Positions 10,864 to 59,792 of a stretch of DNA of 64,000 nucleotides are shown here, piece after piece. The stretch lies in assembly GCA_964487045.1 (NCBI GenBank), contig CAZAOT010000003.1, positions 3,730-67,729 of the forward strand, in the 5' to 3' direction. The position numbers and the translations under genes were made by a program. The stretch's first letter is position 1; the number at the start of each line of letters is the position of its first letter. This stretch comes from an uncultured Candidatus Saccharibacteria bacterium. Lineage in GTDB: Bacteria; Patescibacteriota; UBA1384; DTJR01. A model generated the notes under the pieces. It had not been told where the DNA came from. It saw only the letters and a program-made list of their open reading frames with translations, and made no database searches.

Positions 10864-10926
10864 CAGTCAGTTGCGAACACAAGATCAAATCCCATCTTTT
10901 TGAGATTTTTTCGTATGGGTCTAGTA

Positions 10927-11037: not shown

Positions 11038-11415
11038 ATGCCGCCCAACAGTCGCAAGGCAAGCGCCCCGCGTTATAGGGGGTGCGTTGCTCAGCACAAG
11101 GCGTTCGATGATATCTGCGCTCAGATGACGCCTGCCGAGAGGCAGGAGTTTCTGATCGGCATCGGCGTATGCATCGGCTCATCTGTCGAAGCTAGTCGCA
11201 CACGCTCGATGGTTCGCAGAGCAACAAAGGGGCTAATCGCTGACGGGTTTCATGTCGAAGCTGCCAGCGTATTGGTCTCGAACGGGATGAAGAAGGACGC
11301 ACTCGCCGCGGTCAAGGTAGGTCTTGCCTGTCACCCGAGCAAGAACGCCCAGGACCTCGAGGTCCGCATCCGGCTTGTCGAGTTGGAGAGCGCAGCCGAA
11401 AGGCTACCGTCGTGA
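11038..11415 (+). CDS. Orphan protein C (125 aa) in a GC-rich island
   Basis: SD GGGAGGGAG then ATG at 11038. The listed ORF start at 10900 lies upstream of the promoter. No family recognised. Confidence 0.5.
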   Translation: MPPNSRKASAPRYRGCVAQHKAFDDICAQMTPAERQEFLIGIGVCIGSSVEASRTRSMVRRATKGLIADGFHVEAASVLVSNGMKKDALAAVKVGLACHPSKNAQDLEVRIRLVELESAAERLPS

Positions 11416-28900: not shown

Positions 28901-30295
28901 TCCCGACTGAGCCATGCTGGCAATCTTGGTATCTGAAAATCCGAGGTTGTAGCTAGCATTTAGTCGACTGGCGCCAATAATTTTGGCAGCCATCTGGTAA
29001 TTGCCGCTCTTAAGTTGGTTTATTGCAGAAGCCGGAATGAGTGTTGCTACGTCAGAATTTTGATGAGCGCTTAGGGCTGCGACAGCTGCTGCTACCTCTT
29101 CTGGTGTTGGGTTTTCGCCAAGGGCTATTCCAGCTTGATCATAAAGTGCCTTTTTACCGATAGTCTCGAGCTTAGCTCCATCTCGAAGCGATCCTGCCGG
29201 AAGTCCTTGTTGCTTCTCGTATGCTCGCTCTAGCATTTGCGCTGCTCGATCTTCAAACGATAGTTTAGTTGCAGCCTGCTTGGATAATTCAGGAATTGTC
29301 GCACCTGTCGCGGTAGTTAAATCAGCCGGTGGATCATTGTGAACCATTAATTCTGGCTCGGCATCTGGGTCGGCAAAATCGGCAGCAATTTGGACTGGAC
29401 CCAGGCCCGCCCGCTCAGCAGCGTCAAGCCCGGCAGTAAAAAGCGTCGAATTTCCTTCTTTAATCTCAGCCAGTCCTTCTTGAACTTCTGGAGAAGCTTG
29501 AGCTGAAGAATTCGTAGCAGCAGCAAGAGCTTGTTCGGTGACTTGTGAAATTTCAGCCTTATCGCTCTGACCAATTGCTAAGTTATTTGCAATTACTTGC
29601 GGTTCGTCACCAGTGATAATAGTGCATCCAAAAGTTCTGACATCTACTCCTTGCCCGCGTGAATGTGACGAGAAAGTGCTTCTTGAATCTGTGGCGGCCT
29701 TGTCGTCTTCCAATCCACTCTGGGCAACTGCGGTCGGCTGACCATTGTCATCCATATATGAAGCAGCGACTGACAAGGTCATAATTGGTGCGGTCTTGCC
29801 TTCGTATGAGCAATCAACATCGAACCCTTTGCTAGTGAATCTTTTTTCATAAAGGTAATAAATAGCCGCTAGAGATCTTTTGTCCCAGTGAGAGCTAAAT
29901 AGGTGAAACATTTCCACGCCATTGTCCATGGCCATCGAAAGGGGATCAAGGAAAACGATCCCAGACTTTCCTTCGTCGTGTGCCTTGCATAATTCGTCAA
30001 ATCGAGTCGAACCGATATCTTGTGCCTGATCGAATAATTTTTTGAAATCATCTTCCGACTCTGGGTAGGCGGGTTCATCGGCAGTTTTAGTCTTATTCCA
30101 AATGTCCTTGTCGCAAGAAAGGTTAAGGATTGTCGTAGCGGCTTTAACGTCGGAAGGAGATGACTTTTTAACTTCCTGCTTGAAACTTGACCCTGTTGCA
30201 CCGCTACCGAGTCCCAAGCCCGACACAAAAGTCGGCGTTGCAACCGAGGCTACAACGATGTTGAGCGCTAGAAGTAATGGTAGAAGTGCCCCCAT
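25916..30295 (-). CDS. Giant (1459 aa) secreted/membrane-anchored protein of the T4SS locus (possible VirB6-like or surface adhesin)
   Basis: N-terminal signal peptide. Long Ala/Ser/Lys-rich low-complexity central region. Three or four TM helices at about aa 1100-1180 (ILTSIAMNYAATWIASLGISMPILLGISLL...). Confidence 0.5.
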   Translation of the reverse strand: MGALLPLLLALNIVVASVATPTFVSGLGLGSGATGSSFKQEVKKSSPSDVKAATTILNLSCDKDIWNKTKTADEPAYPESEDDFKKLFDQAQDIGSTRFDELCKAHDEGKSGIVFLDPLSMAMDNGVEMFHLFSSHWDKRSLAAIYYLYEKRFTSKGFDVDCSYEGKTAPIMTLSVAASYMDDNGQPTAVAQSGLEDDKAATDSRSTFSSHSRGQGVDVRTFGCTIITGDEPQVIANNLAIGQSDKAEISQVTEQALAAATNSSAQASPEVQEGLAEIKEGNSTLFTAGLDAAERAGLGPVQIAADFADPDAEPELMVHNDPPADLTTATGATIPELSKQAATKLSFEDRAAQMLERAYEKQQGLPAGSLRDGAKLETIGKKALYDQAGIALGENPTPEEVAAAVAALSAHQNSDVATLIPASAINQLKSGNYQMAAKIIGASRLNASYNLGFSDTKIASMAQSGVSSDELISYIESNRTMSETEKDQLRALTAGGYAALRSKLDEAQAQKDSSVAGKFLIALKGSPALNETQRIALNDFLTKKEFRSGVAQRMSGTKAIQTIIDWVNQNQNISDEDAKGCKEIFDVYSSSSDYVSALDKAYPSVYASTISSSTNLMKPEEKAIFQSVFGANPTPKELEEGFENGKLEQASEAYIFSRGLQKIGLSAAQASYLGVGLAQDRLNGTDVGLAKINQEVGKKWGVTLTKQDLTLFKNGNFAAGKKLALGAIASKSKLPVQKVVDYFSKKDYSSASAISSAFSSNPKLGKETKEMLDGMLGSDTSKGVAASAYAGAKAKARAIATSSAEGSSVDQAEKDRQTTSDKVEKALDKALDKGKAAAQDEGRNILTAKGLNNKEADAITSGQVKGAEKVIANSIVAKKIVSQLPPGTVTIEGVKSVLAGRSTAAERDALRDNLVNYELAQQHIYYSGTRSITDTLMHGTEAERQALLADIGKQSGANALKEVAEANNIPISREQALEFMNNDFSQLGNVAGQTLLANGFSRITNTQISGEAASALYSALTEAISSSPRPTTTYPTTTSNVGIDPSGSNSGDAAFSNMNNDPTSDVPSNLSGEPGVAVDNENNNISNANNATNAGKDTLNKVETPENKLENLGWGVVEDQLGFSRDAIVNLQDNVQNLPNNIVDYYKNFDYNATLSNIATGVILNKLVGNTLAKIDPTGGILTSIAMNYAATWIASLGISMPILLGISLLIDFKSTIQAIKGLVIMALQIFTDPVGFIMGFLGFGKKKPKAQSAAKNAVKAAKDDTLDGKIVDAPIEQPAGTAPEGGTYVFAPAIVYAADDKPSPVSASSAYLAPKKPSEEQFKKISRRTVDQVAEDLLLYSLAASSNRELTKTDTSFLKKHWSNFMDIENPKNGTYAIKQLISPRAVITSDEVEAAKKLGITDALYAKESSEPMVGYRQIVNYARLLYGEDFLPSKTNKRVSGLMQNRSIKTHVHFGF

Positions 30296-31565: not shown

Positions 31566-34016
31566 CTAATACCATTTATATATATTTATTTTCTCGGCGT
31601 TTTCTACGTCGGCCGGATTTATCCTGGCAACTCTTCCAGCAGTGCGATCAAGGACAATTATTTCTTGGCTGTTTAAGTCAACTGCAAGGACGTCCAGCTC
31701 ATGGTTCACATCATCACCTTCCCAGATTTTCTTAATTTCTTCACGTCCTTCCCGACGTTCTGTCTTTCTGACAAGTTCTACTCTATATCGATTATTATTA
31801 GAGTAGGGCGCAAATCTGGAAAGATCGTGGCTCAGAGCATAGGTTGTCAAATTATTTCTAGGAGTATATCCGTCGGGGAGATCTCTTGGGGTCAATTCAA
31901 CTACGGGGCTTCTAGAAGCTCTTCTCATCTCTGTAAGATCGAGATTCGGTGCATTCTCCCCAGCTTCGGTTGACATACCAAAAATAGCTGAACCATCGGC
32001 AGGTGGTGTTTGTGGAAGATAATTATCGCCCTCAACTGCAAGCGCGATTTTAAATCTTCTTGGTGGATCTGCGTTGTTATTTTCATTAATAGCTTGAATA
32101 AGGTTCGTGATATTTTGTCTTTCAATATCAGTCATATCGTCCCAGTTGCGATGGGTTGACGCATAGAGGGCTGCGTTTGCGTTGTCTACGAAGTCATACC
32201 AATTATTATTTAAAATATCTGTCCAGTTTACAACTAATTCTGTTGGCACTTCTGGTTCAGTTCTAACTTCATTCTCAGTCTCGGGTACAATTGGTTCGCG
32301 CGGAGTGACCGCTGGGGTTGTTTCTGGTCTTGCGCCTGGTCTACCGCCGTCTGGGCCATCTCCACCTGAACCATTTCCTCCAGATTCGTGGCCTCTAATT
32401 GCGGTTCCCTTCAGTCCCGGCCCTGAAACGCTTTTTCTTTCGGCGGCCATATTTACTCCGGCACCGATTGCAGCGCCGTGCGCCAGGCTCTGAGCGGCCA
32501 TCGATGGCATCGAGAGTGAGTCAACGGCGTACTGAGTTGCATCAGCATGAAGCTCTGTATTAAATGGTATCTGGTCGTGGAGCGTGTAATCCCAGCCCCT
32601 GGTGGGAAAATTTTCAGTCAGATACTTGTCGGCATTCTTGAGCGTTTCGGCAAAGTGATTGTAGTCAAGATGGCCATCCGGCCCGAGCTTAGAGGCATTA
32701 TCTATCAAATGCTGAAGACCGTCTTTGTTAAAGTCATACTGATATCCATCCGCAATCACATTGTGTCCAGGTAGTGGCTGAGCAAAATTAAAATCGTGAA
32801 CCAGTTGGTTGACTGCTTCATCATAGGTCATACCCTGATTGACCATCATCTCATGTAAATAGGCTTGGGGAGGCTGTATGTCTTGGTGAAGGCCTTTTTC
32901 TAGAGCGCTACTTAAGGCATTGCCCCAGTCTGTATGTTGGTTGGGAATATGCTCCAGGAGTGGATTAGCGTCATAGCTGCTTGCGACTTCTCTTACGTCA
33001 GGTCCGTCCTGAATCGAAATTTCATTAGCTCTGCCAAAATGCTCCTGATAATATTCTCCTTTAAGGTGAGTCATTTTCATCCAGTGCAGACCAAATGATA
33101 CCGCGTCCGAGAGTGCACCTATTCCCGCACCGATCAGCGCCCCGCGCTTCATCCCGATAATCCCAGCTTTTTTAACCGAGTCTCGGACATCTTTCCTGAA
33201 TTCTTGTGTGTAAAATGCTCCGTGATTAGTTGCTTGGATAATTCTTGTTTCAAATCCTTCAGCTTCTCTCGCCTTACAATTGTAAAAGGCTAGCAGCTTG
33301 AGCATCTCGGGCAAATTACCGCTGAAAAGTTCATTTTTCTTGACGGCTTCTTCAGTGCGTAGATTTGATGGCCTAGACAAAAGAAACTGCTCGATAAATG
33401 CTAGGGCATTCGCGTCTCTTTCTGGATCGGTTTCGTCTCGAGATATTCTATTATATTCGGCAACTACTCCTTCATATCCGTAGCTTACTTCTCTTTGTTT
33501 TTCTTCAGCTCGCCATTTTCCGGCAATCCCACCAATTACTGCTCCTGTGATAGTGCCCGCACCATAACCCAAGCCATCAACTAGATGGAGAGCGGATCTT
33601 AAAACCATCGAGCTTCCTGTGGTCAGGGCTATTCTCTTTAATTTACCGGAATTTTTCCCGAACCACTTTTGTATACCGCTGTACCATTTCTTTTCTGGCT
33701 CTTCGATTGAAATTGTGCCGTTATCCTGGCTTATGCCAGATAGCATTTGGGATCTAAAGTTTGCAAACAGCATGTCAGTTCTTTGGTCAATTTCGCTAAG
33801 ATTTTGGCCGAAATAAGAATTAAGAAGTACCTCTCTCTCGTCTTCCGAAAGGGTAGTTTCGTATTGCTTTTCGACATAACGAACAATGCGCCGCCTAAGA
33901 ATTTGTGCTTGCGCAGAGTCTGTTACTTGAGGCTCTTCTTCTAAAGCCTCGTCTTGATCCTGGGCTGGGTCTTGATCGGCGGGAATTGGTTCCGCGCCTG
34001 GTTGGCCTAATCGCAA
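31566..34016 (-). CDS. Large hypothetical protein (816 aa) with glycine-zipper segments and a Gly/Pro-rich linker
   Basis: GxxxG zippers (GAVIGGIAGKW, GALIGAGIGALSD). GSGGNGSGGDGPDGGRPGARPETTP linker. TTG start after SD AAGGAGGG. Confidence 0.5.
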   Translation of the reverse strand: MRLGQPGAEPIPADQDPAQDQDEALEEEPQVTDSAQAQILRRRIVRYVEKQYETTLSEDEREVLLNSYFGQNLSEIDQRTDMLFANFRSQMLSGISQDNGTISIEEPEKKWYSGIQKWFGKNSGKLKRIALTTGSSMVLRSALHLVDGLGYGAGTITGAVIGGIAGKWRAEEKQREVSYGYEGVVAEYNRISRDETDPERDANALAFIEQFLLSRPSNLRTEEAVKKNELFSGNLPEMLKLLAFYNCKAREAEGFETRIIQATNHGAFYTQEFRKDVRDSVKKAGIIGMKRGALIGAGIGALSDAVSFGLHWMKMTHLKGEYYQEHFGRANEISIQDGPDVREVASSYDANPLLEHIPNQHTDWGNALSSALEKGLHQDIQPPQAYLHEMMVNQGMTYDEAVNQLVHDFNFAQPLPGHNVIADGYQYDFNKDGLQHLIDNASKLGPDGHLDYNHFAETLKNADKYLTENFPTRGWDYTLHDQIPFNTELHADATQYAVDSLSMPSMAAQSLAHGAAIGAGVNMAAERKSVSGPGLKGTAIRGHESGGNGSGGDGPDGGRPGARPETTPAVTPREPIVPETENEVRTEPEVPTELVVNWTDILNNNWYDFVDNANAALYASTHRNWDDMTDIERQNITNLIQAINENNNADPPRRFKIALAVEGDNYLPQTPPADGSAIFGMSTEAGENAPNLDLTEMRRASRSPVVELTPRDLPDGYTPRNNLTTYALSHDLSRFAPYSNNNRYRVELVRKTERREGREEIKKIWEGDDVNHELDVLAVDLNSQEIIVLDRTAGRVARINPADVENAEKINIYKWY

Positions 34017-34142: not shown

Positions 34143-34475
34143 CTAGATGAGTCCGGCGCCACGGAGGGCGGCCTGGACTGCGGCATCTGCCGCAGCCTGG
34201 CGTCCAGCTCCGCGGCCGAACCTGGCCCAGTTATTGACGACCGTGTTGGTCGCCAGATCGAGCTGGGCCGGCGTGGGGGCGGGGACTCCTGCGGCCGTCA
34301 GGGCCGCGGTGATAACCGTGAGCTGCGCCGGCGACGCTACAGCCGGAGCCGCCGGGTTAGCGCCCGGAGCTGTCGGCATGGTAGCCGAGCCAGCCGGACG
34401 GTTGCCCGTCACGTACGTGGTCGCTCCCGAGGGAGCGATCGTGAGGGCACTGGCCGGTCCCTCCATCATGCCCAA
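34143..34475 (-). CDS. GC-rich segment J: Ala/Pro/Gly-rich 110-aa ORF (coding status uncertain, no SD) or ncRNA
   Basis: About 70% GC by eye. Minus-strand TTGACA at about 34531-34526 matches the cassette promoter family. 5' hairpins. ATG preceded by the palindrome GCCCAATTGGGC, no SD. Confidence 0.3.
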   Translation of the reverse strand: MGMMEGPASALTIAPSGATTYVTGNRPAGSATMPTAPGANPAAPAVASPAQLTVITAALTAAGVPAPTPAQLDLATNTVVNNWARFGRGAGRQAAADAAVQAALRGAGLI

Positions 34476-34556
34476 TTGGGCAATGGAGGTGCCGAAGGCC
34501 GGCCCGTCGTTAGGCCGGCGCCAAATGTCAAGATTCGGCGCAATAATAATGAATAA

Positions 34557-34637
34557 AGAAATCCGAAATCCGAAAAAATTCCTAAATAATCAATTTGATT
34601 TTTTGTATTTGTTATTTATTCTTCATTCTGGTTTGAT
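34557..34637 (+). repeat. AT-rich intergenic repeat, copy 1 (about 90% identical to 37481-37553)
   Basis: GAAATCCGAAATCCGAAAAAATTCCTAAATAATCAATTTGATTTTTTGTATTTGTTATTTATTCTTCATTCT. Confidence 0.7.
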
Positions 34638-34667
34638 GTTTTGTCTATTATTCTTTATTCTTAATTT

Positions 34668-35159
34668 ATGCAAATAGAATCATTCGATGGACAGAAAAAA
34701 GGGGAGAAAATCATCGCTGTTTGGCGGAGTCATATGTGGATTATGAGTCGAGCAGGATTCATCTTTGCTTTGTTTATAGTAATTGGCTCGATTCCGTTAG
34801 CTTTCACCTCCGCTTCCTGGGGAGCGGGTTTTTTACTGGTTTGCCTCGCTATCGGAGGAATTTACCTAGTAATGCAGATTTACCTATATGTCAGCAGCAT
34901 TTATATACTGACCAACGAGCGCGTTCTCTCAATTAACCAATCAAAACTTCTGATGAGGTCGATCAATGACGTTCCGCTTTCGAATATTCAAAATGTTTCC
35001 CATACCAGGAAGGGCTTATTTCAAATGCTTATGGATTATGGGGTCGTCGAGGTTCAGACAGCCGGATCGACTACGGCTATGACGCTCAAAAACGTGCCGC
35101 ATCCTTATCGAGTCCAGCAAAAAATTTTAACGCGAGAAGAGCGATTAAAATCAGAATAA
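34668..35159 (+). CDS. Bacterial PH-domain membrane protein (YdbS/DUF304-like)
   Basis: 163 aa. Two N-terminal TM helices then a bPH-like domain. Leaderless-like AT-rich start. Confidence 0.65.
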   Translation: MQIESFDGQKKGEKIIAVWRSHMWIMSRAGFIFALFIVIGSIPLAFTSASWGAGFLLVCLAIGGIYLVMQIYLYVSSIYILTNERVLSINQSKLLMRSINDVPLSNIQNVSHTRKGLFQMLMDYGVVEVQTAGSTTAMTLKNVPHPYRVQQKILTREERLKSE

Positions 35160-37683: not shown

Positions 37684-38832
37684 ATGGCTAAGATGATCGG
37701 GATTGTTCGGTTGGGTGGGGAGCATCTCGTCGCTGAGGACTCAACGTTCCTCATCGGCGAGCTCAACAATGGTGACGAGGTATTCGTCGCCGGTAAGCCC
37801 CGTGGCACTGCCCGGCGCGTCGCTGAGACGCTCGGCAAGGACCAGGTCTTCCTGGTCTGCGAACTGGTCGAAAACGACCGCGGTGGCCAGAAGTATCGGG
37901 TCACCGAACCCGTGCAGGTGCTCGGGCTGGCCGAGAGCTTCGGCTCCCGCAACATGCTGCCCGCGGCTCTGCCCGGGCGCTTCGAGGGTTGGCTCGACAT
38001 GCTCCGCGACGGCAAGTTGCGGAAGGTGCGGGTCCCCGCCGATCTGGCTCTGGAAGGTCCCGCCCTCGCCCCCTCGCCGACCACCCCGCCGACCGCCCTG
38101 GGCGCCGCGCTCGGGAAGGCCGGCATGAAGGCCACCGAGGCGCCCGCCACCGAGGCGCCGCAGTCCACGCTGATCGACAGCGCGGGTGCGGCCAAGATCA
38201 TCGCGGAGGGCATCAAGGCCCTCCGGCCGGTCACGAGCGCTCTCGTCGTTACCGACCAGGAGCGCGACGCGCTCCAGGAGGCGATCGGCGCCCGCTTCCC
38301 GCGGGCGGCATTCGACTCCAGCCAGGCTGCGTCGGCCCAGGCCAACATGGAGCGCGTGCTCCAGGACGTACAGCAGCGCCGCCGCGAGGCGGCCGAGCAT
38401 TTCTTCGCCGAACTCGCGTCGTTCTGCGAGGGCAATATGGCCCTCCAGCTCGGCGTCCTCGGTGGGGATCTGCCGACGCTCAACGAGAAGGGGAACCCCA
38501 CCTGGGGCTCCACTCTCGACGAGCTCCTCGGTACCATGTCCACCGCCGAGGCTGCTGTTCTCGGCGCGACCGATCTGCCGGGCTACCCCGAGCCGGACTT
38601 GGCCCAAGGTCGTGGCGATGACCAGCCCGAACCCCCGCCGGATCCCGAGGGCGACAAGCCCGAAGACGAAGCCGAGGCCGCCACGGCCGAGGAGGGCGTC
38701 CACCCCATCGCCGCTGCCCAGGAGGGTGGCGTCAAGGCTGAGAAGGCCGCGCCCGCGACTACCAAGAAGCCGGCGGCGCGCAAGCCTCGCAAGACGGCAG
38801 CCGAGAAGGCCGCGACCGGCACCGACGGCTAG
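37684..38832 (+). CDS. Orphan protein D (382 aa), very GC-rich, with a C-terminal Ala/Pro/Lys/Glu-rich histone-H1-like tail
   Basis: About 65-70% GC by eye. All six frames are open around it, so only the promoter/SD-supported frame is called. Tail ...KAEKAAPATTKKPAARKPRKTAAEKAATG. Confidence 0.5.
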   Translation: MAKMIGIVRLGGEHLVAEDSTFLIGELNNGDEVFVAGKPRGTARRVAETLGKDQVFLVCELVENDRGGQKYRVTEPVQVLGLAESFGSRNMLPAALPGRFEGWLDMLRDGKLRKVRVPADLALEGPALAPSPTTPPTALGAALGKAGMKATEAPATEAPQSTLIDSAGAAKIIAEGIKALRPVTSALVVTDQERDALQEAIGARFPRAAFDSSQAASAQANMERVLQDVQQRRREAAEHFFAELASFCEGNMALQLGVLGGDLPTLNEKGNPTWGSTLDELLGTMSTAEAAVLGATDLPGYPEPDLAQGRGDDQPEPPPDPEGDKPEDEAEAATAEEGVHPIAAAQEGGVKAEKAAPATTKKPAARKPRKTAAEKAATGTDG

Positions 38833-40213: not shown

Positions 40214-40401
40214 GAAAGAATCAAGGAGAAAAGATGTAGAATTGTCAAATTAACAATTAAAAATGTCCAATCAATTATTAAATTCATAAATTAATAATTT
40301 GATTAATTTTCACATTAAGACATTTTTTAAAACATTCAACATTGTTAATTTGGAAATTCGTAAATATCTATTGTTAATTTATTAATTTTTGGCCCATATA
40401 C

Positions 40402-40430
40402 TTGACTTTTGGGGCGTTTTGTGGTATATT
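40402..40430 (+). promoter_or_regulatory. Promoter of cassette E (TTGACT-N17-TGgTATATT)
   Basis: -35 at 40402-40407 and -10 at 40425-40430. About 150-nt structured leader with hairpin CCCTCGC-TTGA-GCGAGGG. Confidence 0.6.
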
Positions 40431-40586
40431 ATCTTGTTCACGATTAGGAGGGGAAAGATCTCTTGGTCGAGAACGTTGACAATTCGAACCCCCTCGCTTG
40501 AGCGAGGGAGACATGCCGGACGAGGTCTCATCCTCCTCGTCATTGCAGCAGCGCTGCCGGTAACCATCACCTAGGAGGTGATTCGG

Positions 40587-41597
40587 ATGAGTAAGATCGA
40601 CCCGCGTTTCGATGGTATGGTTGTGGATTCTGTAGAGCAGGTCGGGACTGTCCCGGCTGAGCTCATCGCTGCGTTCCCGGAGCTCGGCGACGCAATGTAT
40701 TGCGTCGTTGAAATAGCCCGTGGGCAGCGCCGCAACAAGTATGTTGCGGCTGTCCGGCGCCAGTGCGCAAGCGCCGACTTCCGGGACGGCAGTGGTCCAG
40801 GCCACTGCCATTGGTTCTTTGATGCGGACTACAAGTCCGTCAAGGAGCTCGTTCGCGCGACGCGGTGGGCTATGCCCGCCGTGACCGACATGAGCACGCG
40901 CCAGCTCGGCGCACTGCTCGTTGCTGCGATCCGTCGTGGCAACTGCGAAATCGTAGTTGGCGATGTTGTTGTCGCTAGCTACGGAGGCTTCCTCGAGGAG
41001 GCCCTTCGCGAAATGGTTCGCCGCTCGCAAGCGGCGAACAGCCTCAAGGACGAAGCCAGCCGTTGGCTGGCGCAGCACTTTGAGGACGAGTCCATCGCCG
41101 TTGATGGCGGCTGGACTCACCCGGCCATTGACTGGCTGGCGTGGGTATTCGCCAGTCGTCAGCGCGAAAGCGCATTTGGCGATCTCGGTGGGGAGGCGAA
41201 CCGCTGGGTTCGGGAAACGCCCATCACGGGCGGACCTGAGCAGTGGGGCTGCCTGCGGGGTTTGCCCGCCGTACGCACCGAGGTCCGGGCATACGAAGAT
41301 CGCGGCGCGGAGCCGCAGATCTACCTCCCCAACGGGGAGAATTTCTCCGTCCGCCGCCTCATCGGCGGTGGGTACTTCCGCCTCGCGGAGGATGGGGTCT
41401 ACGACCTCTTCCTGCGCCGCGGGGCGGCGGAGATCGGTGACAAGGGCCTGATGTGGGCCCGCGTCACTGAGGACGGAAAGGTTGTCGCGGCGGTCGATCC
41501 GCTGCACAACTATGGGGGTTTGGGCGAGTTTGCCTATACCCCCCTGATGGGGCGCCTGCACAAGGCTCTCCAGGCGGCCGTTGCTGCCGAACAGTAG
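40587..41597 (+). CDS. Orphan protein E (336 aa) in a GC-rich island
   Basis: SD AGGAGG (40573-40578) then ATG at 40587. No family recognised. Antisense 395-aa ORF judged spurious. Confidence 0.5.
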   Translation: MSKIDPRFDGMVVDSVEQVGTVPAELIAAFPELGDAMYCVVEIARGQRRNKYVAAVRRQCASADFRDGSGPGHCHWFFDADYKSVKELVRATRWAMPAVTDMSTRQLGALLVAAIRRGNCEIVVGDVVVASYGGFLEEALREMVRRSQAANSLKDEASRWLAQHFEDESIAVDGGWTHPAIDWLAWVFASRQRESAFGDLGGEANRWVRETPITGGPEQWGCLRGLPAVRTEVRAYEDRGAEPQIYLPNGENFSVRRLIGGGYFRLAEDGVYDLFLRRGAAEIGDKGLMWARVTEDGKVVAAVDPLHNYGGLGEFAYTPLMGRLHKALQAAVAAEQ

Positions 41598-52694: not shown

Positions 52695-52970
52695 GGCAAA
52701 AATTTACCTATAAATTTTTGAATTACTAATTTCGAAATCCTAATTTCTAAAAAAATTTCAAAATCATAAAATCAAAACTCAATCAAAATTCAGAATTAAT
52801 AATTCGAATTTCTATTGGGCTAAGGAGAATATTACCAGAAACGTTTTTTAAGGTCAAGAGAGTTGGGAGGGTAAAGAGGACTTTTGAAAAAATGGGGCAG
52901 CAAAACAGGCCGTTTGACAGGTTTGATTTAGTAGTATTCAATACGTTTAGCGGATACTTGTCAAGTACAT

Positions 52971-53624
52971 TTGCATGGAGGAGAGAGATTGAAGAGTGCC
53001 ATCTATATGCATCACTTCGCGCAGTCTGTTCTGCTGAAGCTTGGCGATCAGATCGCCGAGTTGCTTGATCGAGAGCTTCAAGCGTTGGTCGGATGTGCAT
53101 CAGATGTTCAGAGCCTGCGTGATCAACTTCAGGGTATGGTCAAGGTTAACCGTCACGAAGTAGAGCTGCCAGTTGTACCCGGGAATGAGAGCGTCTACCG
53201 ATGTGCGGGTTACAAGCTGGACGTACTTCCGGCACACGTGCAGTCGTGTCTTGACCTGCATGACGAATGCTCTGCCAGAGTAACCGAACGTATCTGTGAG
53301 TCGCTCCAGTCAATCCAGATCGGCTGTCCGCTGATCAACTACGCCCATGGCCAGCTGTACTTAGCTTGCGACACCGCCGGCTCCTGCGTGGAGTTGGCAA
53401 GGCTTGCTGTCGCACTCGACAGGAACTTCCCAGCGACGCACCAAACCCTGCCACTGCTAGCCGGGGATGAATGGCCTTGGCTGATGTGGGATAATGGCAA
53501 TCTGCACATGAACCATCCCTTCTCGGCCAGGGGACTATGGAAGCTTCAGGCGCTGGCCAAATCCATCAGGGAAGAGCTAAGGCCTGGGATGTATGGATAC
53601 GCCAGAGCCGGCGGCACACGCTGA
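52971..53624 (+). CDS. Orphan protein H1 (about 205-217 aa; start at TTG 52971 or ATG 53007), GC-rich, Cys/His-rich
   Basis: Long ORF in a GC-rich island. Terminator hairpin GGGGACA...TGTCCCC + ACCTTTTTTA at 53661-53700. Confidence 0.45.
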   Translation: MHGGERLKSAIYMHHFAQSVLLKLGDQIAELLDRELQALVGCASDVQSLRDQLQGMVKVNRHEVELPVVPGNESVYRCAGYKLDVLPAHVQSCLDLHDECSARVTERICESLQSIQIGCPLINYAHGQLYLACDTAGSCVELARLAVALDRNFPATHQTLPLLAGDEWPWLMWDNGNLHMNHPFSARGLWKLQALAKSIREELRPGMYGYARAGGTR

Positions 53625-53715
53625 TGAAGGCAGGTAGACTATCTGCTTACTCAAGGGGACATCCTCCAGACGGAGCTTGTCCCCACCTTTTTTATATTTA
53701 TTTCGGCCCAATACA

Positions 53716-53744
53716 CTTGAATTTTTATATACAAATTGCTATTA
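53716..53744 (+). promoter_or_regulatory. Promoter of H2 (TTGAAT-N17-TATTAT)
   Basis: -35 at 53716-53721 and -10 at 53739-53744. SD GGGAGG at 53830-53835. Confidence 0.45.
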
Positions 53745-53840
53745 TTTCTTCTTCTGTAATAGGTGGTCATTGACATTTGTATGGAGAAGAAACACCCGCA
53801 TCGACTTTGGTCGACGGGTTCAAGAAACGGGAGGTATACG

Positions 53841-54377
53841 ATGGTGGATCTTGCGGTTGTGAGTCTTGACCTGCGTAAGCAGGCCATGCTGAAGCTTCAA
53901 GATCTAGGTGAAAGCGAGATTCACTTAGGTCTTGTCAGAAGCTTTGTCGAAAGGCTTCATCATTCTGTCCCAATGACCTTGCTCGAGCGCGATCGGCTTG
54001 TTGACGCGCTTGGGGGGTTGCATGCAAGCCGTATAGACTTTCGCTCCTATGTGTCGCCGCGTCGGCTGGTCGCATTTCTTGATGTCAGTTTGCAGAATCT
54101 ATCCCAGGATGATCTGCCGGATTCGGTCAATGTGCATGGGATCGACTGGCTATGTGAGCAGGCAGAAAGCTGCGACCAGGCAGAATCAGAAGTGGACGTT
54201 CTCGATGCTGAGGCTTTTGCGATCGACCAGCCGAAGGTCGGTTCGGCAAGCGCCATGACTCACGCTGAAGCGCGGGTCAAAGTAGCTGAGTACCGAGAGG
54301 CTGCTGAGGCGCTTGAGCGGCAGATTCCGCTCGATCTTCAGGTGGGTCACATCGAGGACGGAGACGAAGACAAGTAG
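53841..54377 (+). CDS. Orphan acidic protein H2 (178 aa), GC-rich
   Basis: ATG at 53841 after GGGAGGTATACG. No family recognised. Confidence 0.45.
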   Translation: MVDLAVVSLDLRKQAMLKLQDLGESEIHLGLVRSFVERLHHSVPMTLLERDRLVDALGGLHASRIDFRSYVSPRRLVAFLDVSLQNLSQDDLPDSVNVHGIDWLCEQAESCDQAESEVDVLDAEAFAIDQPKVGSASAMTHAEARVKVAEYREAAEALERQIPLDLQVGHIEDGDEDK

Positions 54378-54401
54378 GTCGAGGTTGCGGCGGATCTATA
54401 G

Positions 54402-54447
54402 GGGCTGGAATGCGCTTTGCGCTTCCAGTCCCTTTTTCTTTTTTTAA
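54402..54447 (+). terminator. Intrinsic terminator of H2
   Basis: GGGCTGGAATGCGCTTTGCGCTTCCAGTCCC hairpin followed by TTTTTCTTTTTTT. Confidence 0.6.
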
Positions 54448-54470
54448 AATCCTGTAAATTGAAGATAAAT

Positions 54471-57400
54471 ATGAATAAGCCATTTGTTCACCTGCATGTT
54501 CACTCTCATTATTCACTCCTTGATGGTCTGGGTACTCCTGCCCAGATCATTGAGCGTGCCAAAGAGCTCGGTATGAACTCGGTCGCTTTGACCGATCACG
54601 GATCTATGTACGGCGTGATTGAATTTTATAAAGCAGCCAAAGCAGCTGAAATAAAGCCGATTATCGGTATGGAGGCTTATGTCGCTCCAAGATTACTTAG
54701 CGAGAAAGTTTCAAAATTAGATTCAAATCCATATCACTTGATTTTGCTGGCCAAAAATTTGGATGGGTATTTAAACTTGCTTCGACTTTCTTCGATTGGT
54801 CACTTGGAAGGATTCTATTATAAGCCCCGAGTCGATAAGGTTACGCTAAAAAAATATTCAAAGGGATTGATCGCGACCTCTGCTTGTTTGGCCGGTGAAC
54901 TTTCTCGAATGCTTTTATCAAATGATGAAGAATCAGCAAGGCGCGCTCTTGGCGAATACAAAGAAATATTTGGTGATGACTTCTATATCGAACTTCAGGA
55001 TCATCCCGACATCAGGGATCAGGGGCTAGCTAACGAGAAATTGATCGCCTTGGCCAAAGAAACTAATACTCCGATGACGGTGGCTTGCGACTCGCACTAT
55101 ATTCGCAAGGAAGACCGGGCGGCTCACGATGTGCTGGTTTGCGTTCAGATCGGCAAGACGGTCGATGACCCAACGCGCATGACATATGACGGCGACTTCT
55201 CACTGCGCGATCCTAAGGAGCTTTACGAGGCCTTTAAAGACGTGCCGGAGGCGCTAGAGAACACGCAGAAGATTGCTGATATGTGCGCCTTAGAAATTCC
55301 GTTTGAAGAAAATCTCCTGCCAATTTTCAAAATTGACTCAAAGCAGACACCCGATGAATTTTTACGCGAGCAGTGTCTAAAGGGCTTGCCGGAGCGTTAT
55401 CCAGACCTTGATGAGACTAAGAAAAAAGAATTGATGGAGAGGCTCGACTATGAACTCGGCGTGATCGCCAAGATGGGTTTTTCAAGTTACTTCTTGATCG
55501 TTGCTGACTATGTGAAATGGGCTAAATCGAGCGGAATAATGGTCGGCCCGGGTAGAGGTTCGGCAGCAGGGGCGCTTGTGACGTATCTGACATATATCAC
55601 TGATGTTGATCCGATCAGATATGGACTACTTTTTGAGAGATTTTTGAATCCTGATCGATTGGAAATGCCGGACATCGATCTTGACTTTGCTGACCATAGG
55701 CGTGGTGAGGTACTAAACTATGTCGTTAATAAATATGGCGAGGACAGGGTTGCTGGAGTTATTACATTTGGAACGATGGCGGCGCGAGCTGCGGTGCGAG
55801 ATGTCGGTCGCGCATTAGGGATGCCTTATGCGGAGGTCGATGCAATCTCCAAAGTCATTCCTCCTCCTGTTCAAGGCCGCCATATTCCTCTTGAAAAATC
55901 GATCAAAAATGCTCCGGAGCTCAGAGAATTTTATACAAAAGACCCACGTGCCAAACGACTACTCGACATGGCAATTAAGCTGGAGGGGACGGTCAGGCAT
56001 GCTGGACAGCACGCATCGGCCTTCGTAATCACCCAAGATGAGCTAGTCTGTTACGTACCACTTCAGCAAGCTCAAAAAGAAGGGGTTAAGCAAGTTACTC
56101 AATATTCAATGTATCCAGTCGCTGAACTTGGACTTTTGAAAATGGACTTCTTGGGCCTATCAAACTTAACAATTATTGAGCGTGCCCTCGGAATTATTGA
56201 AGCGGTTGATGGCGAGAAAATTGATATTTTCAATCTTCCGCTAGATGATTTAAAAACTTTTCATCTGCTCGGACGAGCTGAAACAACCGGAGTATTTCAA
56301 CTCGAGTCCTCGGGAATGAAGCGATATATTAAGGACTTACAGCCCACCTCAATCGACGATGTTGCTGTGATGGTTGCCCTATATCGCCCAGGTCCGATGC
56401 AATTTATTGACTCATTTATTAAACGAAAGAACGGCCGCGAGAAAATCGAATATCCTCATGAAGCAACTAAGTCCGCCTTAGAAGTAACCTATGGAATTCC
56501 TGTTTATCAGGAGCAGGTCATGCAGATTTCCAAGGACATGGCCGGGTTTACCGGTGGTGAGGCTGATAAGCTTCGAAAAGCGATGGGTAAGAAGATCGCT
56601 AAATTGATGGCTGAGATGAAGGAGAAATTCATCAAAGGCTCGGTAAAAAATGGCGTTTCACAAAAAGACGCAGAGAAAGTTTTCTCAATGCTTGAGGATT
56701 TTGCTGCTTATGGATTTAACAAATCTCATGCTGTTTGTTACGCCATGATTGCTTACCAAACGGCGTATCTTAAGGCAAACTATCCTCAGTCGTTTATGGC
56801 CGCACTTCTAACGAGCGATCTTGACGATACTGATCGCATCGGAATTGAGATCGAAGAATGCAACAAAATGGGAATCCAGGTCTTGCCGCCTGACGTTAAT
56901 GAATCTTTCGTCGATTTTGGTGTAGTTAAAGATACGGGAAATATTCGTTTTGGCTTAGCGGCGATCAAGGGGATCGGGGAGTCGCCAGCGCGAATTATTA
57001 CCAGAGAGCGAAAGAAAAACGGGCCATTTAAGTCACTTGAAGATTTTATTGATCGCATGATCAAAACCGATGTTGAAGGGGTGACTGACCGATCGGTCTT
57101 GAACAAGAAGATTCTCGAGAGCTTAGCTCGCTCAGGAGCGCTTGATAACTTGGCAGAGAGAAATCAGATTTTGGAGGGCATGGAAATCATTACCAAACGC
57201 ATTCAAGAATCGTCTAAGCAGAAGAAGACCGCGCAGATAGGCTTGTTTGGCGAAGTGTTGTCGGCTGACATTGAACTTGGCAAGCTGGAATTACCGGAGG
57301 TAGAACCAGCGACTCAGGCCGATCGGCTTGCTTGGGAAAAAGCTCATCTTGGGATTTATTTATCAGAGCATCCACTCAAGGAAGTTGGGGGATTACTTCG

Positions 57401-58037
57401 GGCAGCAGTACCCAATCAAATTGCCAAACTTGATCTTACGATGGAGGGAAAACGTGCTAAGATCGCCGGAATTCTTTCGGAGGTCAAGAAGATCAATACT
57501 AGAAGCGGTCAGCAAATGGCTTTTGCTAAAATAGAAGACCTTTCTGGAAAAACCGAAATATTAGTCTTCCCGAAGCTTCTTGCTGACACTAATGAGCTAT
57601 GGCAGAGCGACAATATTCTGATAGTTTCCGGAAAAATTTCGACCAAAGATAATGAGGTTAAGCTTTTAGCGGATGCAGCTGAGAAATTTGATCCGTCCAA
57701 AGTCGATGCAAGCAAAGTTATAACCGTGTCCGATGATGATGAAATTGTCGAGATCGACTTGGGAGAGGAGCCGGAGCTAGATAGTTTAGAATCTTCTTTA
57801 ACTAAAGCATTTAAGGATGGGAAGGTATTGTTTGAAAAAGACCTTGAGCTATATGTAATTCTGACAGGCAAAGTTGATAAGGATAAATTGGTCAGTTTAA
57901 AGGAAATTTTTGAAAAAAATCCAGGGGATAAAAAGGTTGTTCTAGCTTATAAGAAAAATGGTCATTTTGAATTCAAGAAAACCAAAGTACTCGTGGGGAA
58001 GTTAAAAGAAGAAGAGATAAAGAAGGTTTTGGGGTGA
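54471..58037 (+). CDS. dnaE: DNA polymerase III alpha subunit
   Basis: PHP domain HLHVHSHYSLLDG at the N-terminus. About 1190 aa. The ATG at 54471 is preferred over the ORF-track start at 54417. Confidence 0.9.
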   Translation: MNKPFVHLHVHSHYSLLDGLGTPAQIIERAKELGMNSVALTDHGSMYGVIEFYKAAKAAEIKPIIGMEAYVAPRLLSEKVSKLDSNPYHLILLAKNLDGYLNLLRLSSIGHLEGFYYKPRVDKVTLKKYSKGLIATSACLAGELSRMLLSNDEESARRALGEYKEIFGDDFYIELQDHPDIRDQGLANEKLIALAKETNTPMTVACDSHYIRKEDRAAHDVLVCVQIGKTVDDPTRMTYDGDFSLRDPKELYEAFKDVPEALENTQKIADMCALEIPFEENLLPIFKIDSKQTPDEFLREQCLKGLPERYPDLDETKKKELMERLDYELGVIAKMGFSSYFLIVADYVKWAKSSGIMVGPGRGSAAGALVTYLTYITDVDPIRYGLLFERFLNPDRLEMPDIDLDFADHRRGEVLNYVVNKYGEDRVAGVITFGTMAARAAVRDVGRALGMPYAEVDAISKVIPPPVQGRHIPLEKSIKNAPELREFYTKDPRAKRLLDMAIKLEGTVRHAGQHASAFVITQDELVCYVPLQQAQKEGVKQVTQYSMYPVAELGLLKMDFLGLSNLTIIERALGIIEAVDGEKIDIFNLPLDDLKTFHLLGRAETTGVFQLESSGMKRYIKDLQPTSIDDVAVMVALYRPGPMQFIDSFIKRKNGREKIEYPHEATKSALEVTYGIPVYQEQVMQISKDMAGFTGGEADKLRKAMGKKIAKLMAEMKEKFIKGSVKNGVSQKDAEKVFSMLEDFAAYGFNKSHAVCYAMIAYQTAYLKANYPQSFMAALLTSDLDDTDRIGIEIEECNKMGIQVLPPDVNESFVDFGVVKDTGNIRFGLAAIKGIGESPARIITRERKKNGPFKSLEDFIDRMIKTDVEGVTDRSVLNKKILESLARSGALDNLAERNQILEGMEIITKRIQESSKQKKTAQIGLFGEVLSADIELGKLELPEVEPATQADRLAWEKAHLGIYLSEHPLKEVGGLLRAAVPNQIAKLDLTMEGKRAKIAGILSEVKKINTRSGQQMAFAKIEDLSGKTEILVFPKLLADTNELWQSDNILIVSGKISTKDNEVKLLADAAEKFDPSKVDASKVITVSDDDEIVEIDLGEEPELDSLESSLTKAFKDGKVLFEKDLELYVILTGKVDKDKLVSLKEIFEKNPGDKKVVLAYKKNGHFEFKKTKVLVGKLKEEEIKKVLG

Positions 58038-58110: not shown

Positions 58111-58329
58111 TTAACGATTTCCTCACCCTCCTAACGCCCTTTGTGTAGCTCTTTTTGTTGAACCTTCTGGAATTCATCCTCGAACAAGTTTGTCGAGGTA
58201 ATCAGTTCCAGCTTTCAACATCAAAGAGCATCTACTTTTAAAGTCTCGAAGCCCGCTTCTTCGACTTTTTATTAATTTTTTTGCTTCCAAGGGTTGATTT
58301 TTTTTAAAAATATGATAAAGTTTTTTTAC

Positions 58330-58640
58330 ATTATTGTTTCCGGTCCCTAGGGACCAACGAGCGTTCCCTCACCGAGGGAGCACCACAACCAGGCCTGAGG
58401 GGCGGCGGAATCCAGAGCCGTCGCCTCTCAGGGAAAAACTAGGCTTCGCGTCAACGCCCTCCTCCAGAGAATAGGCGCGAAGATGCACCACCGCGGGCTG
58501 CGTGCGCGATATGGCGCAGCCGGGCCAAGGCGGGCGACTGGCCTCCTTTGAAGGGGTCGATGGCTGGTCGCCCGTCTCCCAAACACACAAGGGCTGACTT
58601 TCTTGCGATCGTCAGCCCTATTTGATTCTCGTCCCGTTAG
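58330..58640 (+). ncRNA. Candidate structured ncRNA Ia (about 300 nt), GC-rich, plus strand
   Basis: A 15-bp stem with two G·U pairs (CCTGAGGGGCGGCGG / CCGTCGCCTCTCAGG). A 12-bp stem with two G·U pairs (GGGCGACTGGCC / GGCTGGTCGCCC). These are plus-strand-specific. 3' hairpin GGGCTGAC..GTCAGCCC followed by TATTTG. No convincing ORF. Confidence 0.3.
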
Positions 58641-58736
58641 AGATAAGTAATATTTTATCAACCGAATTATGCTTCAAAATTTTAAACTAATACAAGAACC
58701 ATTTTTATAAAAAATTTCTAACGGGGTAAACAGGTG

Positions 58737-58774: not shown

Positions 58775-59792
58775 GAGTGTAGGATGATCGCTAAGATCGT
58801 TCTACGCAGAACGTGGAAAGGGGTTTTGCTTATGATTCTCTGTGGTTCCATCGCCATCGTCTGACAACCGGCGCCTCTAACGATCTCACGATCGTAAGAG
58901 AAAGGGGATCTAGTGATCAGAGCGAGTCCGTAACCACGCCTTTCACATCGCCGGCTGAAATGCCGGCCCTGACCAAACCCAAGCTGTACCAATTAGTCGC
59001 AAAGTTGCTGATCGACGGACTTCTCTTGCGGCGAAAGCCGCCCCGACCGGCCAATGGGCCAGAAGACAAGAGGCTGAAGAAACATGCGTGCACGTTGTCG
59101 CGGCCACACCGTCGTATCCACCTTCTCCTTCGAGATCGCGCTGGTTCTCTAGGGAAACTCGCAAACCCGGGGATGCAGATCTCTGAAAGTCTCTGCACCA
59201 GCCATCTTGCTAGAACCCGCAAGGGCCGACTTCAAACGCTCCACCCTAACAAGGGACGGGAAAGCTGGCCAATCCGCGGCGGGGGACGCCGGCGCGCACT
59301 AGGCCGTAAGAGCTAGGGATGCGCGGCGGCTAAACGCCCGCCAAGCCCGAGTCGAAGGACCCGGAATGGAGCAAGTAGCCAAAGCAGTGACGGAGCGGAC
59401 ATAGTTCGCGCTCCCTATATCTGCTTGCGCTGGCATTGCCAAGGCACGCCGAGCCTGCGTGGCTCACAGAGTGCTTCATGGCGAGAAATGCATGCCCATT
59501 CCGGCTCTGCAATCCTACACATTAGGACGATGGGGTTGCGCCTGGAAAAGCATCAGGGTGTGATGCGAGCGAGGCTGATCGCTGGAATGGCCCTGGATAG
59601 AGGGTTTTGGCGAGGATGTCTTGCGGTGAGGCTGGTCCCTTCGGGGACTCCCCAGCCGGTGGCTGGGGAGCTAGTCTACTCATTTCGCCTTGGTGCGTTT
59701 GCCCAGGCGGGATTTTCCATAGGGCTCGAGTGTTTCACTCGGGCCCAAGTTGTTTTATAAAAGCAAAAAAGTGCCTCACGGGCACTCTTTTT
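58775..59792 (+). ncRNA. Candidate large structured ncRNA Ib (about 1 kb), GC-rich, promoter-to-terminator
   Basis: No ORF longer than 167 codons in about 65% GC DNA, and the longest is Arg-rich and GTG-initiated. cUUCGg tetraloop hairpin GGTCCCTTCGGGGACT. Hairpin CCCCAGCC-GGT-GGCTGGGG. Strong terminator AGTGCCTCACGGGCACT followed by CTTTTTT at 59766-59792. Confidence 0.35.

What the first reader, a model, noticed from the sequence alone, without database searches (positions are those of the whole stretch)
52914..54447. Cassette H: two separately promoted and terminated GC-rich orphan genes between rpmA and dnaE
H1 (about 210 aa, rich in Cys/His: CAGYKLDVLPAHVQSCLDLHDEC…CPLINYAHGQLYLACDTAGSC) and H2 (178 aa, acidic) each have their own promoter and hairpin terminator. 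The Cys/His spacing in H1 hints at a metal-binding or redox domain. None is recognisable to me.
Basis: partly seen in the sequence, partly recalled or inferred. Interest (0 to 1): 0.5.

Follow-up and report, generated by a model that had tools for sequence, protein, structure and literature searches.

The report
Two GC-rich orphan genes, resident not mobile
Between the ribosomal-protein gene rpmA and the polymerase gene dnaE lie two real but unrecognisable protein genes: one is an old, conserved resident of this small bacterial lineage with four invariant cysteines and an unusually conserved control region, the other is a fast-evolving acidic protein, and neither looks like a recently inserted cassette.

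Summary
H1 (52989-53624, 211 aa) and H2 (53841-54377, 178 aa, pI 4.6) are GC-rich ORFs (56% and 55% GC, against 40-44% in the flanks). Each sits between a promoter-like site and a hairpin-plus-T-run terminator, between rpmA and dnaE.

No Pfam, NCBIfam, PHROG, PADLOC, PDB, Rfam, phage or plasmid match exists.

The word "cassette" misleads for H1. It has three homologues (35-54% identity) among billions of proteins. Where context is known, the homologue lies at the same rpmA side of an rpmA-dnaE interval.
- Substitutions are concentrated at third codon positions.
- Four-fold-site divergence (1.40) is at least that of rpmA and rplS (0.87), so H1 co-diverged with the genome.
- It is GC-rich in all four lineages.
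- A 34-nt block between its -35 box and ribosome-binding site is invariant, and its terminator shows a compensatory change.

Four of its eight cysteines, one histidine and a C-terminal GGTR are invariant. A metal or redox site is possible but untested. The structure model (pLDDT 72) matches no known fold.

H2 has no certain homologue and sits in a slot that holds different orphan genes in relatives.

Function remains inferred. Interest is moderate to low.

The parts
52829..52857 (-). Promoter of the divergent rpmA-rplS operon (TTGACC-17-TGgTAATAT). It lies in a 34-nt block (52827-52860) that is identical in the relative L008.
   Evidence: Promoter scan; DNA alignment A2.
52914..52919 (+). H1 -35 box, TTGACA (within TTTGACA), invariant in three lineages.
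   Evidence: Alignments A4 and A8. The 17-nt spacer that follows varies, as expected for a promoter.
52935..52968 (+). Invariant 34-nt block TATTCAATACGTTTAGCGGATRCTTGTCAAGTAC. It holds the -10-like TTCAAT (52937-52942) and the start of the leader. It is part of a dyad, TTGACA-N15-TATTCAATA-N15-TGTCAA. It is a candidate operator or leader element.
   Evidence: Identical apart from one R position in window, L008 and L013, whose H1 proteins are 35-54% identical. It lies in a different frame relative to H1 in window and L008, so it is non-coding. There is no second copy in the window. No convincing RNA fold was found.
52977..52983 (+). H1 ribosome-binding site, GGAGGAG.
   Evidence: Sequence; GGAGG is conserved in three lineages.
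52989..53624 (+). H1 coding sequence, 211 aa (205 aa if started from ATG 53007). Soluble, pI 6.1. Invariant residues: C72, H83, C113, C127, C133 and the C-terminal GGTR.
53655..53693 (+). H1 intrinsic terminator: hairpin GGGGACA..TGTCCCC followed by a T-run. It is preceded by a second hairpin at 53622-53653.
   Evidence: Fold with z = -5.1. The hairpin is kept in all four lineages, with one compensatory A-U to G-C change.
53717..53745 (+). H2 promoter, TTGAAT-17-TATTAT, with TG before the -10 box.
   Evidence: Promoter scan. Promoter-like hexamers sit at the same place after the H1 terminator in L008, L013 and L014.
53829..53834 (+). H2 ribosome-binding site, GGGAGG, 6 nt before the ATG.
   Evidence: Sequence.
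53841..54377 (+). H2 coding sequence, 178 aa, acidic (pI 4.6, net charge -18).
54400..54446 (+). H2 intrinsic terminator: a 34-nt hairpin followed by TTTTTCTTTTTTT. It ends 24 nt before the dnaE ATG at 54471.
   Evidence: Fold with z = -3.9; sequence.

Best explanation
These are two independent, chromosomally resident, lineage-restricted protein genes. They are not a mobile cassette.

H1
- It has been inherited vertically at least since the common ancestor of this genome and a relative with about 70% identical ribosomal proteins.
- It is transcribed alone, divergently from rpmA. The promoter has a consensus -35 box and a non-canonical -10 box embedded in a 34-nt invariant sequence. I infer that this sequence is an operator or leader for a sequence-specific regulator.
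- It is translated from a strong ribosome-binding site, and transcription stops at a conserved intrinsic terminator.
- The product is a soluble protein of about 23 kDa with mixed helices and strands and no detectable fold relative.
- Its invariant C72, C113, C127, C133 and H83 most likely form a metal (Zn or Fe-S) or thiol-redox/catalytic centre. This is inferred, at about one chance in three.
- The invariant C-terminal GGTR probably serves as a recognition tail (inferred).

H2
- It is a fast-evolving acidic protein in the variable slot between H1 and dnaE. In the relative L008 that slot holds different orphan genes.
- Its terminator abuts dnaE, so dnaE is probably transcribed by read-through (inferred).

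GC-richness
- It is an old property shared by a whole class of orphan genes in this genome. In H1 it appears to be decaying slowly from an even GC-richer ancestor.
For: - Coding: differences between H1 and its L008 orthologue by codon position are 80/57/126 of 210, with dN 0.38 and pS saturated. Residues upstream of ATG 53007 (K-x-A-[IL]-Y-M) are conserved with third-position variation, which supports the TTG/GTG start. H2 has zero stops only in its own frame, G at codon position 1 is 0.44, and GC1/2/3 is 0.73/0.35/0.56.
- Residency: the synteny GT4-gltX-yraN-[orphans]-rplS-rpmA-[H1 homologue + orphans]-dnaE is kept on a 264-kb contig of the relative. K4 is 1.40 for H1 against 0.87 and 0.86 for rpmA and rplS. 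Independent assemblies reproduce the junctions at 99.8-100% identity. No flanking repeats were found.
- Narrow family: only 4 distinct members in 1.84 billion representative proteins and 5.8 billion clusters.
- Regulatory elements.
- Invariant residues. The GGTR codons vary synonymously.
- Composition: H1 GC3 is 0.63, 0.64, 0.74 and 0.79 in the four lineages. Polarised synonymous changes are 13 GC-to-AT against 3 AT-to-GC. Synonymous codon usage of H1 and H2 resembles that of the other Pfam-less GC-rich ORFs rather than housekeeping genes.
- dnaE: only 24 nt separate the T-run from the ATG, and no promoter was found there.
Against: - No functional evidence of any kind exists.
- The structure model is of medium quality (pLDDT 72, pTM 0.51, alignment of 4 sequences). 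The Cys-rich loop is its weakest part, and Cys clustering in space could not be checked.
- The Cys spacing (C-x40-C-x13-C-x5-C) matches no classical metal motif.
- H1's -10 box lacks the key A at position 2. The same block reads as a TTGACA-17-TTGAAT promoter on the minus strand, so the strand on which the invariant block acts is not settled.
- Full synteny is known for one relative only. L013 and L014 are contigs of about 900 nt.
- H2's homology to the relative's 202-aa ORF is only suggestive (pairwise E = 0.012; 13/2000 shuffles).
- The taxonomy of the source was not established.
Confidence: 0.6

Rival explanations
1. Ancient horizontal import. H1, and the other GC-rich orphan genes, came from a very GC-rich donor. 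If the organism is an epibiotic CPR bacterium, that donor could be an actinobacterial host or its mobile elements. The genes were fitted with native promoters and are only partly ameliorated. This concerns origin and is compatible with residency since the clade's ancestor.
For: - GC3 ranges from 0.56 to 0.85 among the Pfam-less ORFs, against about 0.40 in housekeeping genes.
- Amino-acid usage is rich in R, A and L and poor in K, N and I.
- There is a net GC-to-AT drift in H1 (13 against 3), implying an equilibrium GC3 near 0.4.
- The GC-richness stops at the CDS borders, and the regulatory DNA is AT-rich and of native type.
Against: - No donor homologue exists in 5.8 billion protein clusters or in the phage and plasmid sets.
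- With K4 near 1 or above, neutral decay to 0.40 requires an ancestral GC3 near 0.9 or higher.
- The counts are small and parsimony is unreliable near saturation.
- The host and the taxonomy were not established here.
Confidence: 0.35
2. Recently inserted mobile gene cassette or genomic islet, as the label 'Cassette H' implies.
For: Atypical GC and codon usage, and self-contained promoter and terminator units.
Against: - H1 is at the same locus in a diverged relative, with K4 at least that of the neighbouring genes.
- There are no repeats or att-like sites, no recombinase hit among the neighbouring ORFs scanned, and no viral or plasmid relatives.
- For H2 alone, a recent replacement in the variable slot is not excluded.
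Confidence: 0.05
3. Toxin-antitoxin or effector-immunity pair, with H1 as the active protein and acidic H2 as its inhibitor.
For: The genes are adjacent, H2 is strongly acidic, and the downstream partner varies between lineages.
Against: - A terminator and a separate promoter lie between the two genes.
- In the relative L008 the gene after H1 is unrelated to H2.
- There are no PADLOC, Pfam or NCBIfam matches.
- H1 is conserved like an ordinary gene under purifying selection.
Confidence: 0.07
4. The ORFs are chance open frames in GC-rich non-coding DNA, for example a structured RNA.
For: - GC-rich DNA has few stop codons.
- The H2 region folds somewhat better than shuffles (z = -2.7).
- A neighbouring GC-rich stretch (58320-58680) does look like a structured RNA.
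Against: - H1 shows a third-position substitution bias and conservation at the amino-acid level.
- In both genes only one of the six frames is open. Run lengths this long are reached in 2 and 5 of 1000 shuffles.
- Both show codon-position periodicity and have a ribosome-binding site at the correct spacing.
Confidence: 0.03

Closest known systems
Taxonomically restricted (orphan) gene families of uncultivated bacteria, as catalogued for example in the work listed (bioRxiv 10.1101/2022.01.26.477801; only the title and the start of the abstract were seen)
   Same: No homologue outside a very narrow clade, no domain hit, conserved genomic position, and purifying selection.
   Different: The composition is strongly atypical (GC3 0.63-0.79 in an approximately 0.40 background) and persists across lineages. 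The promoter/leader block is ultra-conserved.
Horizontally acquired islets undergoing amelioration (the classical Lawrence-Ochman concept; from my own knowledge)
   Same: Atypical GC and codon usage confined to the genes, with a net GC-to-AT synonymous drift.
   Different: No donor and no mobility genes or repeats were found. H1 is older than the split from a relative with about 70% identical ribosomal proteins, and it uses native-type promoters.
Cys4 metal sites (zinc ribbons, Fe-S proteins such as the endonuclease III family)
Acidic inhibitor or DNA-mimic proteins (Ocr, ArdA, many anti-defence proteins; from my own knowledge), as a comparison for H2
   Same: Small, soluble, strongly acidic, fast-evolving, and located in a variable slot.
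   Different: No sequence match to any family. No structure was obtained. The resemblance is by charge only.

Membership tests
Mobile gene cassette / recently acquired genomic island | Absent from the same locus in related genomes | tested here: not met
   The H1 orthologue lies next to rpmA in the rpmA-dnaE interval of a relative. K4 is 1.40 against 0.87 for the neighbours.
Mobile gene cassette / recently acquired genomic island | Flanking direct or inverted repeats, att sites, or an adjacent recombinase | tested here: not met
   Only short repeats at chance level were found. The flanking genes are L19, L27, DnaE and YraN.
Mobile gene cassette / recently acquired genomic island | Composition deviating from the host genome | tested here: met
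   GC is 0.55-0.56 against 0.40-0.44, and GC3 is 0.56-0.63 against about 0.40. The same holds in the relatives.
Known metal-binding / redox domains | Significant match to a curated domain model or a solved structure | tested here: not met
Known metal-binding / redox domains | Conserved set of ligand residues (Cys/His) | tested here: inconclusive
   C72, H83, C113, C127 and C133 are invariant. C36, C87 and C94 are not conserved, and C103 is kept in 3 of 4. Spatial clustering and metal content were not testable.
Toxin-antitoxin / effector-immunity pair | Co-transcription, and conserved pairing of the two genes | tested here: not met
   A terminator and a promoter lie between the genes. The gene after H1 in the relative is unrelated to H2.
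Intrinsic (Rho-independent) terminator | GC-rich hairpin directly followed by a U tract | tested here: met
   Both hairpins fold well beyond shuffles. The H1 hairpin is conserved with one compensatory pair.
Sigma-70-type promoter | -35 and -10 hexamers with a 16-18 nt spacer | tested here: inconclusive
   H2 gives TTGAAT-17-TATTAT with TG. H1 gives a consensus TTGACA, then 17 nt, then TTCAAT, which lacks the A at position 2. The boxes are conserved and the spacer is variable. No transcript data are available.
Ubiquitin-like / sulfur-carrier proteins (considered because of the C-terminal GG) | Beta-grasp fold of about 70-100 aa ending in GG, with an E1-like or JAMM partner nearby | tested here: not met
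   H1 is 211 aa and ends in GGTR. The predicted secondary structure is not a beta-grasp. No such neighbours are present.
Taxonomically restricted orphan gene | No detectable homologue outside a narrow clade despite exhaustive search | tested here: met
   H1 has 4 members only. H2 matches only itself. The giant repeat proteins listed are spurious (hhalign probability 0.5%).

The most novel reading that the evidence does not exclude
H1 is the oldest traceable member of a second compositional class of genes in this genome. About ten other ORFs in the window belong to it: GC3 0.55-0.85, no family match, scattered in gaps between housekeeping genes. At three intervals (before the GT4 gene, yraN-rplS and rpmA-dnaE) the relative also carries Pfam-less ORFs. 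The class would be kept GC-rich either by continuing import from a high-GC partner organism or by selection or biased conversion. H1's invariant 34-nt promoter/leader block would then be a new cis-regulatory element controlling a clade-specific cysteine-centre protein.
Probability: 0.15. Interest if true: 0.65.

Novelty: new member of a known kind. Interest (0 to 1): 0.35.

Why it matters
If the reading is right, atypical GC alone wrongly flags old resident genes as recent imports in this lineage.

It also delivers one tractable target, H1. This is a tiny protein family with four invariant cysteines, an invariant C-terminal tail and an ultra-conserved control sequence. It sits next to core replication and translation genes of an uncultivated, probably reduced-genome bacterium.

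It would not by itself answer a long-standing question. Its value is as a well-delimited orphan gene for expression, metal analysis and regulator hunting, and as one data point on why a whole class of orphan genes in this genome is GC-rich.

Tried and rejected
- Domain libraries (Pfam, NCBIfam, PHROGs, PADLOC) for H1, its homologues, H2 and the relative's neighbour gave nothing below E = 0.06.
- PDB sequence search gave only a coiled-coil hit at E = 0.027 for H1 and nothing for H2.
- Rfam gave nothing on the region, even at E up to 5.
- Structure prediction: the first AlphaFold run, with 2 sequences, was unusable (pLDDT 48.6). The second, with 4 sequences, reached pLDDT 72.
- The exhaustive HMMER search listed 17 giant repeat proteins with E down to 1e-15. 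These are artefacts of summing over Bacteroidota-type surface repeats (hhalign probability 0.5%; BLASTP E = 0.4).
- The genome-collection scan returned only a thioredoxin-like protein that shares the peptide VYRCAGYK by chance.
- Both JGI metagenome scans (DNA motif and protein profile) were empty.
- Three viral-contig scans, plus phage and plasmid tblastn searches, were empty.
- No paralogy exists among the GC-rich orphan ORFs of the window.
- A search for further copies of the H1 leader gave only a marginal 11-bit hit at 5921-5955.
- A leader RNA structure was weak, with no real covariation.
- The 72-aa ORF called after H1 in the relative, and its 49-aa counterpart here, was rejected as a gene. 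Only the part that overlaps the terminator hairpins is conserved, and it is conserved at the DNA level.
- Taxonomy could not be obtained from cluster names or from sample identifiers in the literature.
Full report
**What is there**

The window has about 43% GC and many short GC-rich islands. The finding covers one island, bounded by rplS (51802-52347, minus strand) and rpmA (52347-52694, minus strand) on the left and by dnaE (ATG 54471 to 58037, plus strand) on the right. Pfam confirms all three flanking genes.

Two plus-strand ORFs fill the island.
- H1 runs to the stop at 53624. Its best start is TTG 52989, 7 nt after GGAGGAG, which gives 211 aa. Independent gene calls also give 211 aa.
- The residues between TTG 52989 and the next ATG (53007) are conserved in relatives, with third-position variation in their codons. 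This supports the upstream start.
- H2 is ATG 53841 to 54377, 178 aa, with GGGAGG 6 nt upstream.

Position 52914 is the first base of a TTGACA box. Position 54447 falls 1 nt past the last T (54446) of the T-run of H2's terminator.

**Are they more than chance?**

- The stop-free runs of 220 and 204 codons are reached in 2 and 5 of 1000 dinucleotide shuffles.
- In each gene only the named frame is free of stops. The other five frames carry 4-12 stops.
- GC by codon position is 0.64/0.42/0.63 for H1 and 0.73/0.35/0.56 for H2. G at first codon positions is 0.35 and 0.44.
- For H1 there is direct comparative proof. Against its orthologue in L008 the differences by codon position are 80/57/126 over 210 codons. 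dN is 0.38 and synonymous sites are saturated.

**Signals**

- H2's promoter, TTGAAT-17-TATTAT with an upstream TG, was found by the scan.
- H1 has TTGACA, a 17-nt spacer and TTCAAT. The boxes are conserved and the spacer varies across three lineages.
- Both terminators fold far better than shuffles. 53655-53684 plus a T-run gives z = -5.1, and 54400-54433 plus a T-run gives z = -3.9.
- The H1 terminator is kept in all four family members, with one compensatory A-U to G-C exchange.
- On the minus strand, TTGACC-17-TGgTAATAT (52857-52829) is the rpmA promoter. It lies in a 34-nt block identical to the relative.

**Relatives and synteny**

H1 has only three other distinct relatives. This holds both in a word-indexed search of 5.8 billion clusters and in an exhaustive HMMER search of 1.84 billion representatives.
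- P0002/P0005: 54% identical.
- P0006: 45-46% identical.
- P0007: a 124-aa C-terminal fragment.

H2 matches only itself, in six independent assemblies that are 99.8-100% identical to the window.

The 54% homologue lies on a 264-kb contig with the order GT4, gltX, yraN, five small Pfam-less ORFs, rplS, rpmA, H1 homologue, four more Pfam-less ORFs (72, 195, 202 and 285 aa), dnaE. That relative's L27 and L19 are 69% and 73% identical to the window's.

Divergence at four-fold sites is 1.40 for H1 against 0.87 and 0.86 for rpmA and rplS. H1 therefore co-diverged with the chromosome and was not exchanged recently. No flanking repeats exist. No viral, phage or plasmid relatives exist.

**Composition**

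- H1 is GC-rich in every lineage. GC3 is 0.63, 0.64, 0.74 and 0.79, next to AT-rich flanks.
- The GC-richness stops at the CDS borders.
- The synonymous codon usage of H1 and H2 resembles that of the other Pfam-less GC-rich ORFs of the window rather than housekeeping genes. Their proteins are poor in K, N and I and rich in R, L and A.
- With L013 as outgroup, synonymous changes on the window and L008 branches are 13 GC-to-AT against 3 AT-to-GC. This implies an equilibrium GC3 near 0.4 and a slow decay from a GC-richer ancestor. The counts are small and the sites are near saturation, so this is only a lead.

**Conserved non-coding DNA**

The most unexpected feature is a 34-nt block, TATTCAATACGTTTAGCGGATRCTTGTCAAGTAC (52935-52968).
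- It is identical in three lineages whose H1 proteins share 35-54% identity.
- It spans the -10-like hexamer and the first 25 nt or so of the presumed leader.
- Its reading frame relative to H1 differs between the window and L008, so it is not coding.
- With the -35 box it forms a dyad, TTGACA-N15-TATTCAATA-N15-TGTCAA. On the minus strand the same block reads as TTGACA-17-TTGAAT.
- It has no convincing RNA fold and no Rfam match.
- It has no second copy in the window beyond a marginal hit at 5921-5955.

I read it as an operator or leader for a sequence-specific factor. This is inference.

**Function search**

- No Pfam, NCBIfam, PHROG, PADLOC or PDB sequence match exists for H1, its relatives or H2.
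- AlphaFold with four sequences gave pLDDT 72.4 and pTM 0.51, with a mixed helix and hairpin architecture.
- The giant repeat proteins are artefacts.

Within the family the following are invariant:
- C72, in the motif YRCAGY.
- H83, in the motif PAHV.
- C113.
- C127 and C133, in the motif C-[DE]-x-A-G-S-C-x-E-L-A.
- The extreme C-terminus, GGTR, whose codons vary synonymously.

H1 is soluble with pI 6.1. H2 is soluble with pI 4.6 and net charge -18.

**H2 and the variable slot**

- H2 is unrelated to the 195-aa gene that follows H1 in the relative.
- It shows only suggestive similarity to the 202-aa gene further on. Pairwise E is 0.012, and 13 of 2000 shuffles reach the score.
- A promoter-like site follows the H1 terminator in all four lineages, while the genes after it differ.
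- H2's terminator ends 24 nt before the dnaE ATG, and no promoter is detectable there. dnaE is therefore probably reached by read-through. This is inference.

**Verdict**

The cassette interpretation is not supported for H1, which is an old resident gene. For H2 a replaceable or fast-evolving slot is the better description. The metal or redox idea survives in reduced form, as four Cys plus one His, and remains untested.

The best-supported mechanism is two independently transcribed, lineage-restricted genes. H1 is a tightly controlled cysteine-centre protein. H2 is an acidic, rapidly evolving protein upstream of dnaE.

The rivals, with my estimates:
- Ancient import from a GC-rich donor, a question of origin that is compatible with residency: 0.35.
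- Toxin-inhibitor pair: 0.07.
- Recent cassette: 0.05.
- Non-coding DNA: 0.03.

**Limits**

- The organism was not identified. The gene content includes dnaA with DnaA boxes, VirB4/TraG-like and PilB-like ATPases, an M23-amidase fusion and large Pfam-less proteins. It looks like a reduced-genome, possibly CPR or Saccharibacteria-like bacterium, but that is my impression and not a test.
- Full synteny is known for only one relative.

Noticed in passing
window 58320-58680 (+): A stretch of about 300 nt with 62% GC lies downstream of dnaE and has no ORF of 80 aa or more. On the plus strand it folds at -152 kcal/mol (z = -5.1), against z = -1.6 on the minus strand. It ends in a hairpin plus a U-rich tail. 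There is no Rfam hit at E up to 1 and no tRNA or tmRNA. It is a candidate unknown structured RNA. The relative has a 2.4-kb gene-less gap at the same place.
   Followed up: partly
window 54434-54471: Only 24 nt separate the T-run of H2's terminator from the dnaE start codon, and no promoter-like site is found there. dnaE seems to depend on read-through, or on a weak TAAAAT box at 54445-54450.
   Followed up: partly
window 5874-7345, 9479-10252, 10900-11415, 34147-34677, 37684-38832, 40374-41561, 47512-48190, 51120-51694, 58813-59760: About ten further GC-rich ORFs (GC 0.52-0.70; the 382-aa ORF at 37684-38832 has GC3 0.85) lie between housekeeping genes. The ten scanned against Pfam gave no hit (the ORFs at 47512-48190 were not scanned), and none is paralogous to another. 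The relative carries Pfam-less ORFs at three of the same intervals (before GT4, yraN-rplS, rpmA-dnaE).
   Followed up: partly
window 52827-52860: A 34-nt block, spacer included, is identical to the relative. It contains the minus-strand rpmA promoter TTGACC-17-TGgTAATAT. Promoters in this lineage seem to be conserved well beyond their hexamers.
   Followed up: partly
window 5650-5820: A cluster of DnaA boxes (TTATCCACA / TGTGGATAA, at least five copies) lies next to dnaA (4287-5624, minus strand). This is the likely replication origin. It is followed by a promoter for the GC-rich orphan ORF at 5874.
   Followed up: no
window 51802-52694 (-); L008 2-971: L19 carries a long Glu/Lys-rich C-terminal tail (181 aa). 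L27 carries a Lys/Glu-rich extension that differs in length between the window (115 aa) and the relative (155 aa).
   Followed up: no
L008 1852-2070; window 53623-53773: A 72-aa gene is called after H1 in the relative, with a 49-aa counterpart here. It is conserved only where it overlaps the terminator hairpins, and only at the DNA level. It is most likely a false gene call.
   Followed up: yes
window 22301-24328 (-), 11631-13277 (+), 25916-30295 (-): The window also holds a TraG/VirB4-like P-loop ATPase, a PilB-type T2SSE ATPase, and Pfam-less proteins of 1459 aa (25916-30295) and 816 aa (31566-34016). This suggests type IV secretion or pilus machinery in a reduced genome.
   Followed up: no
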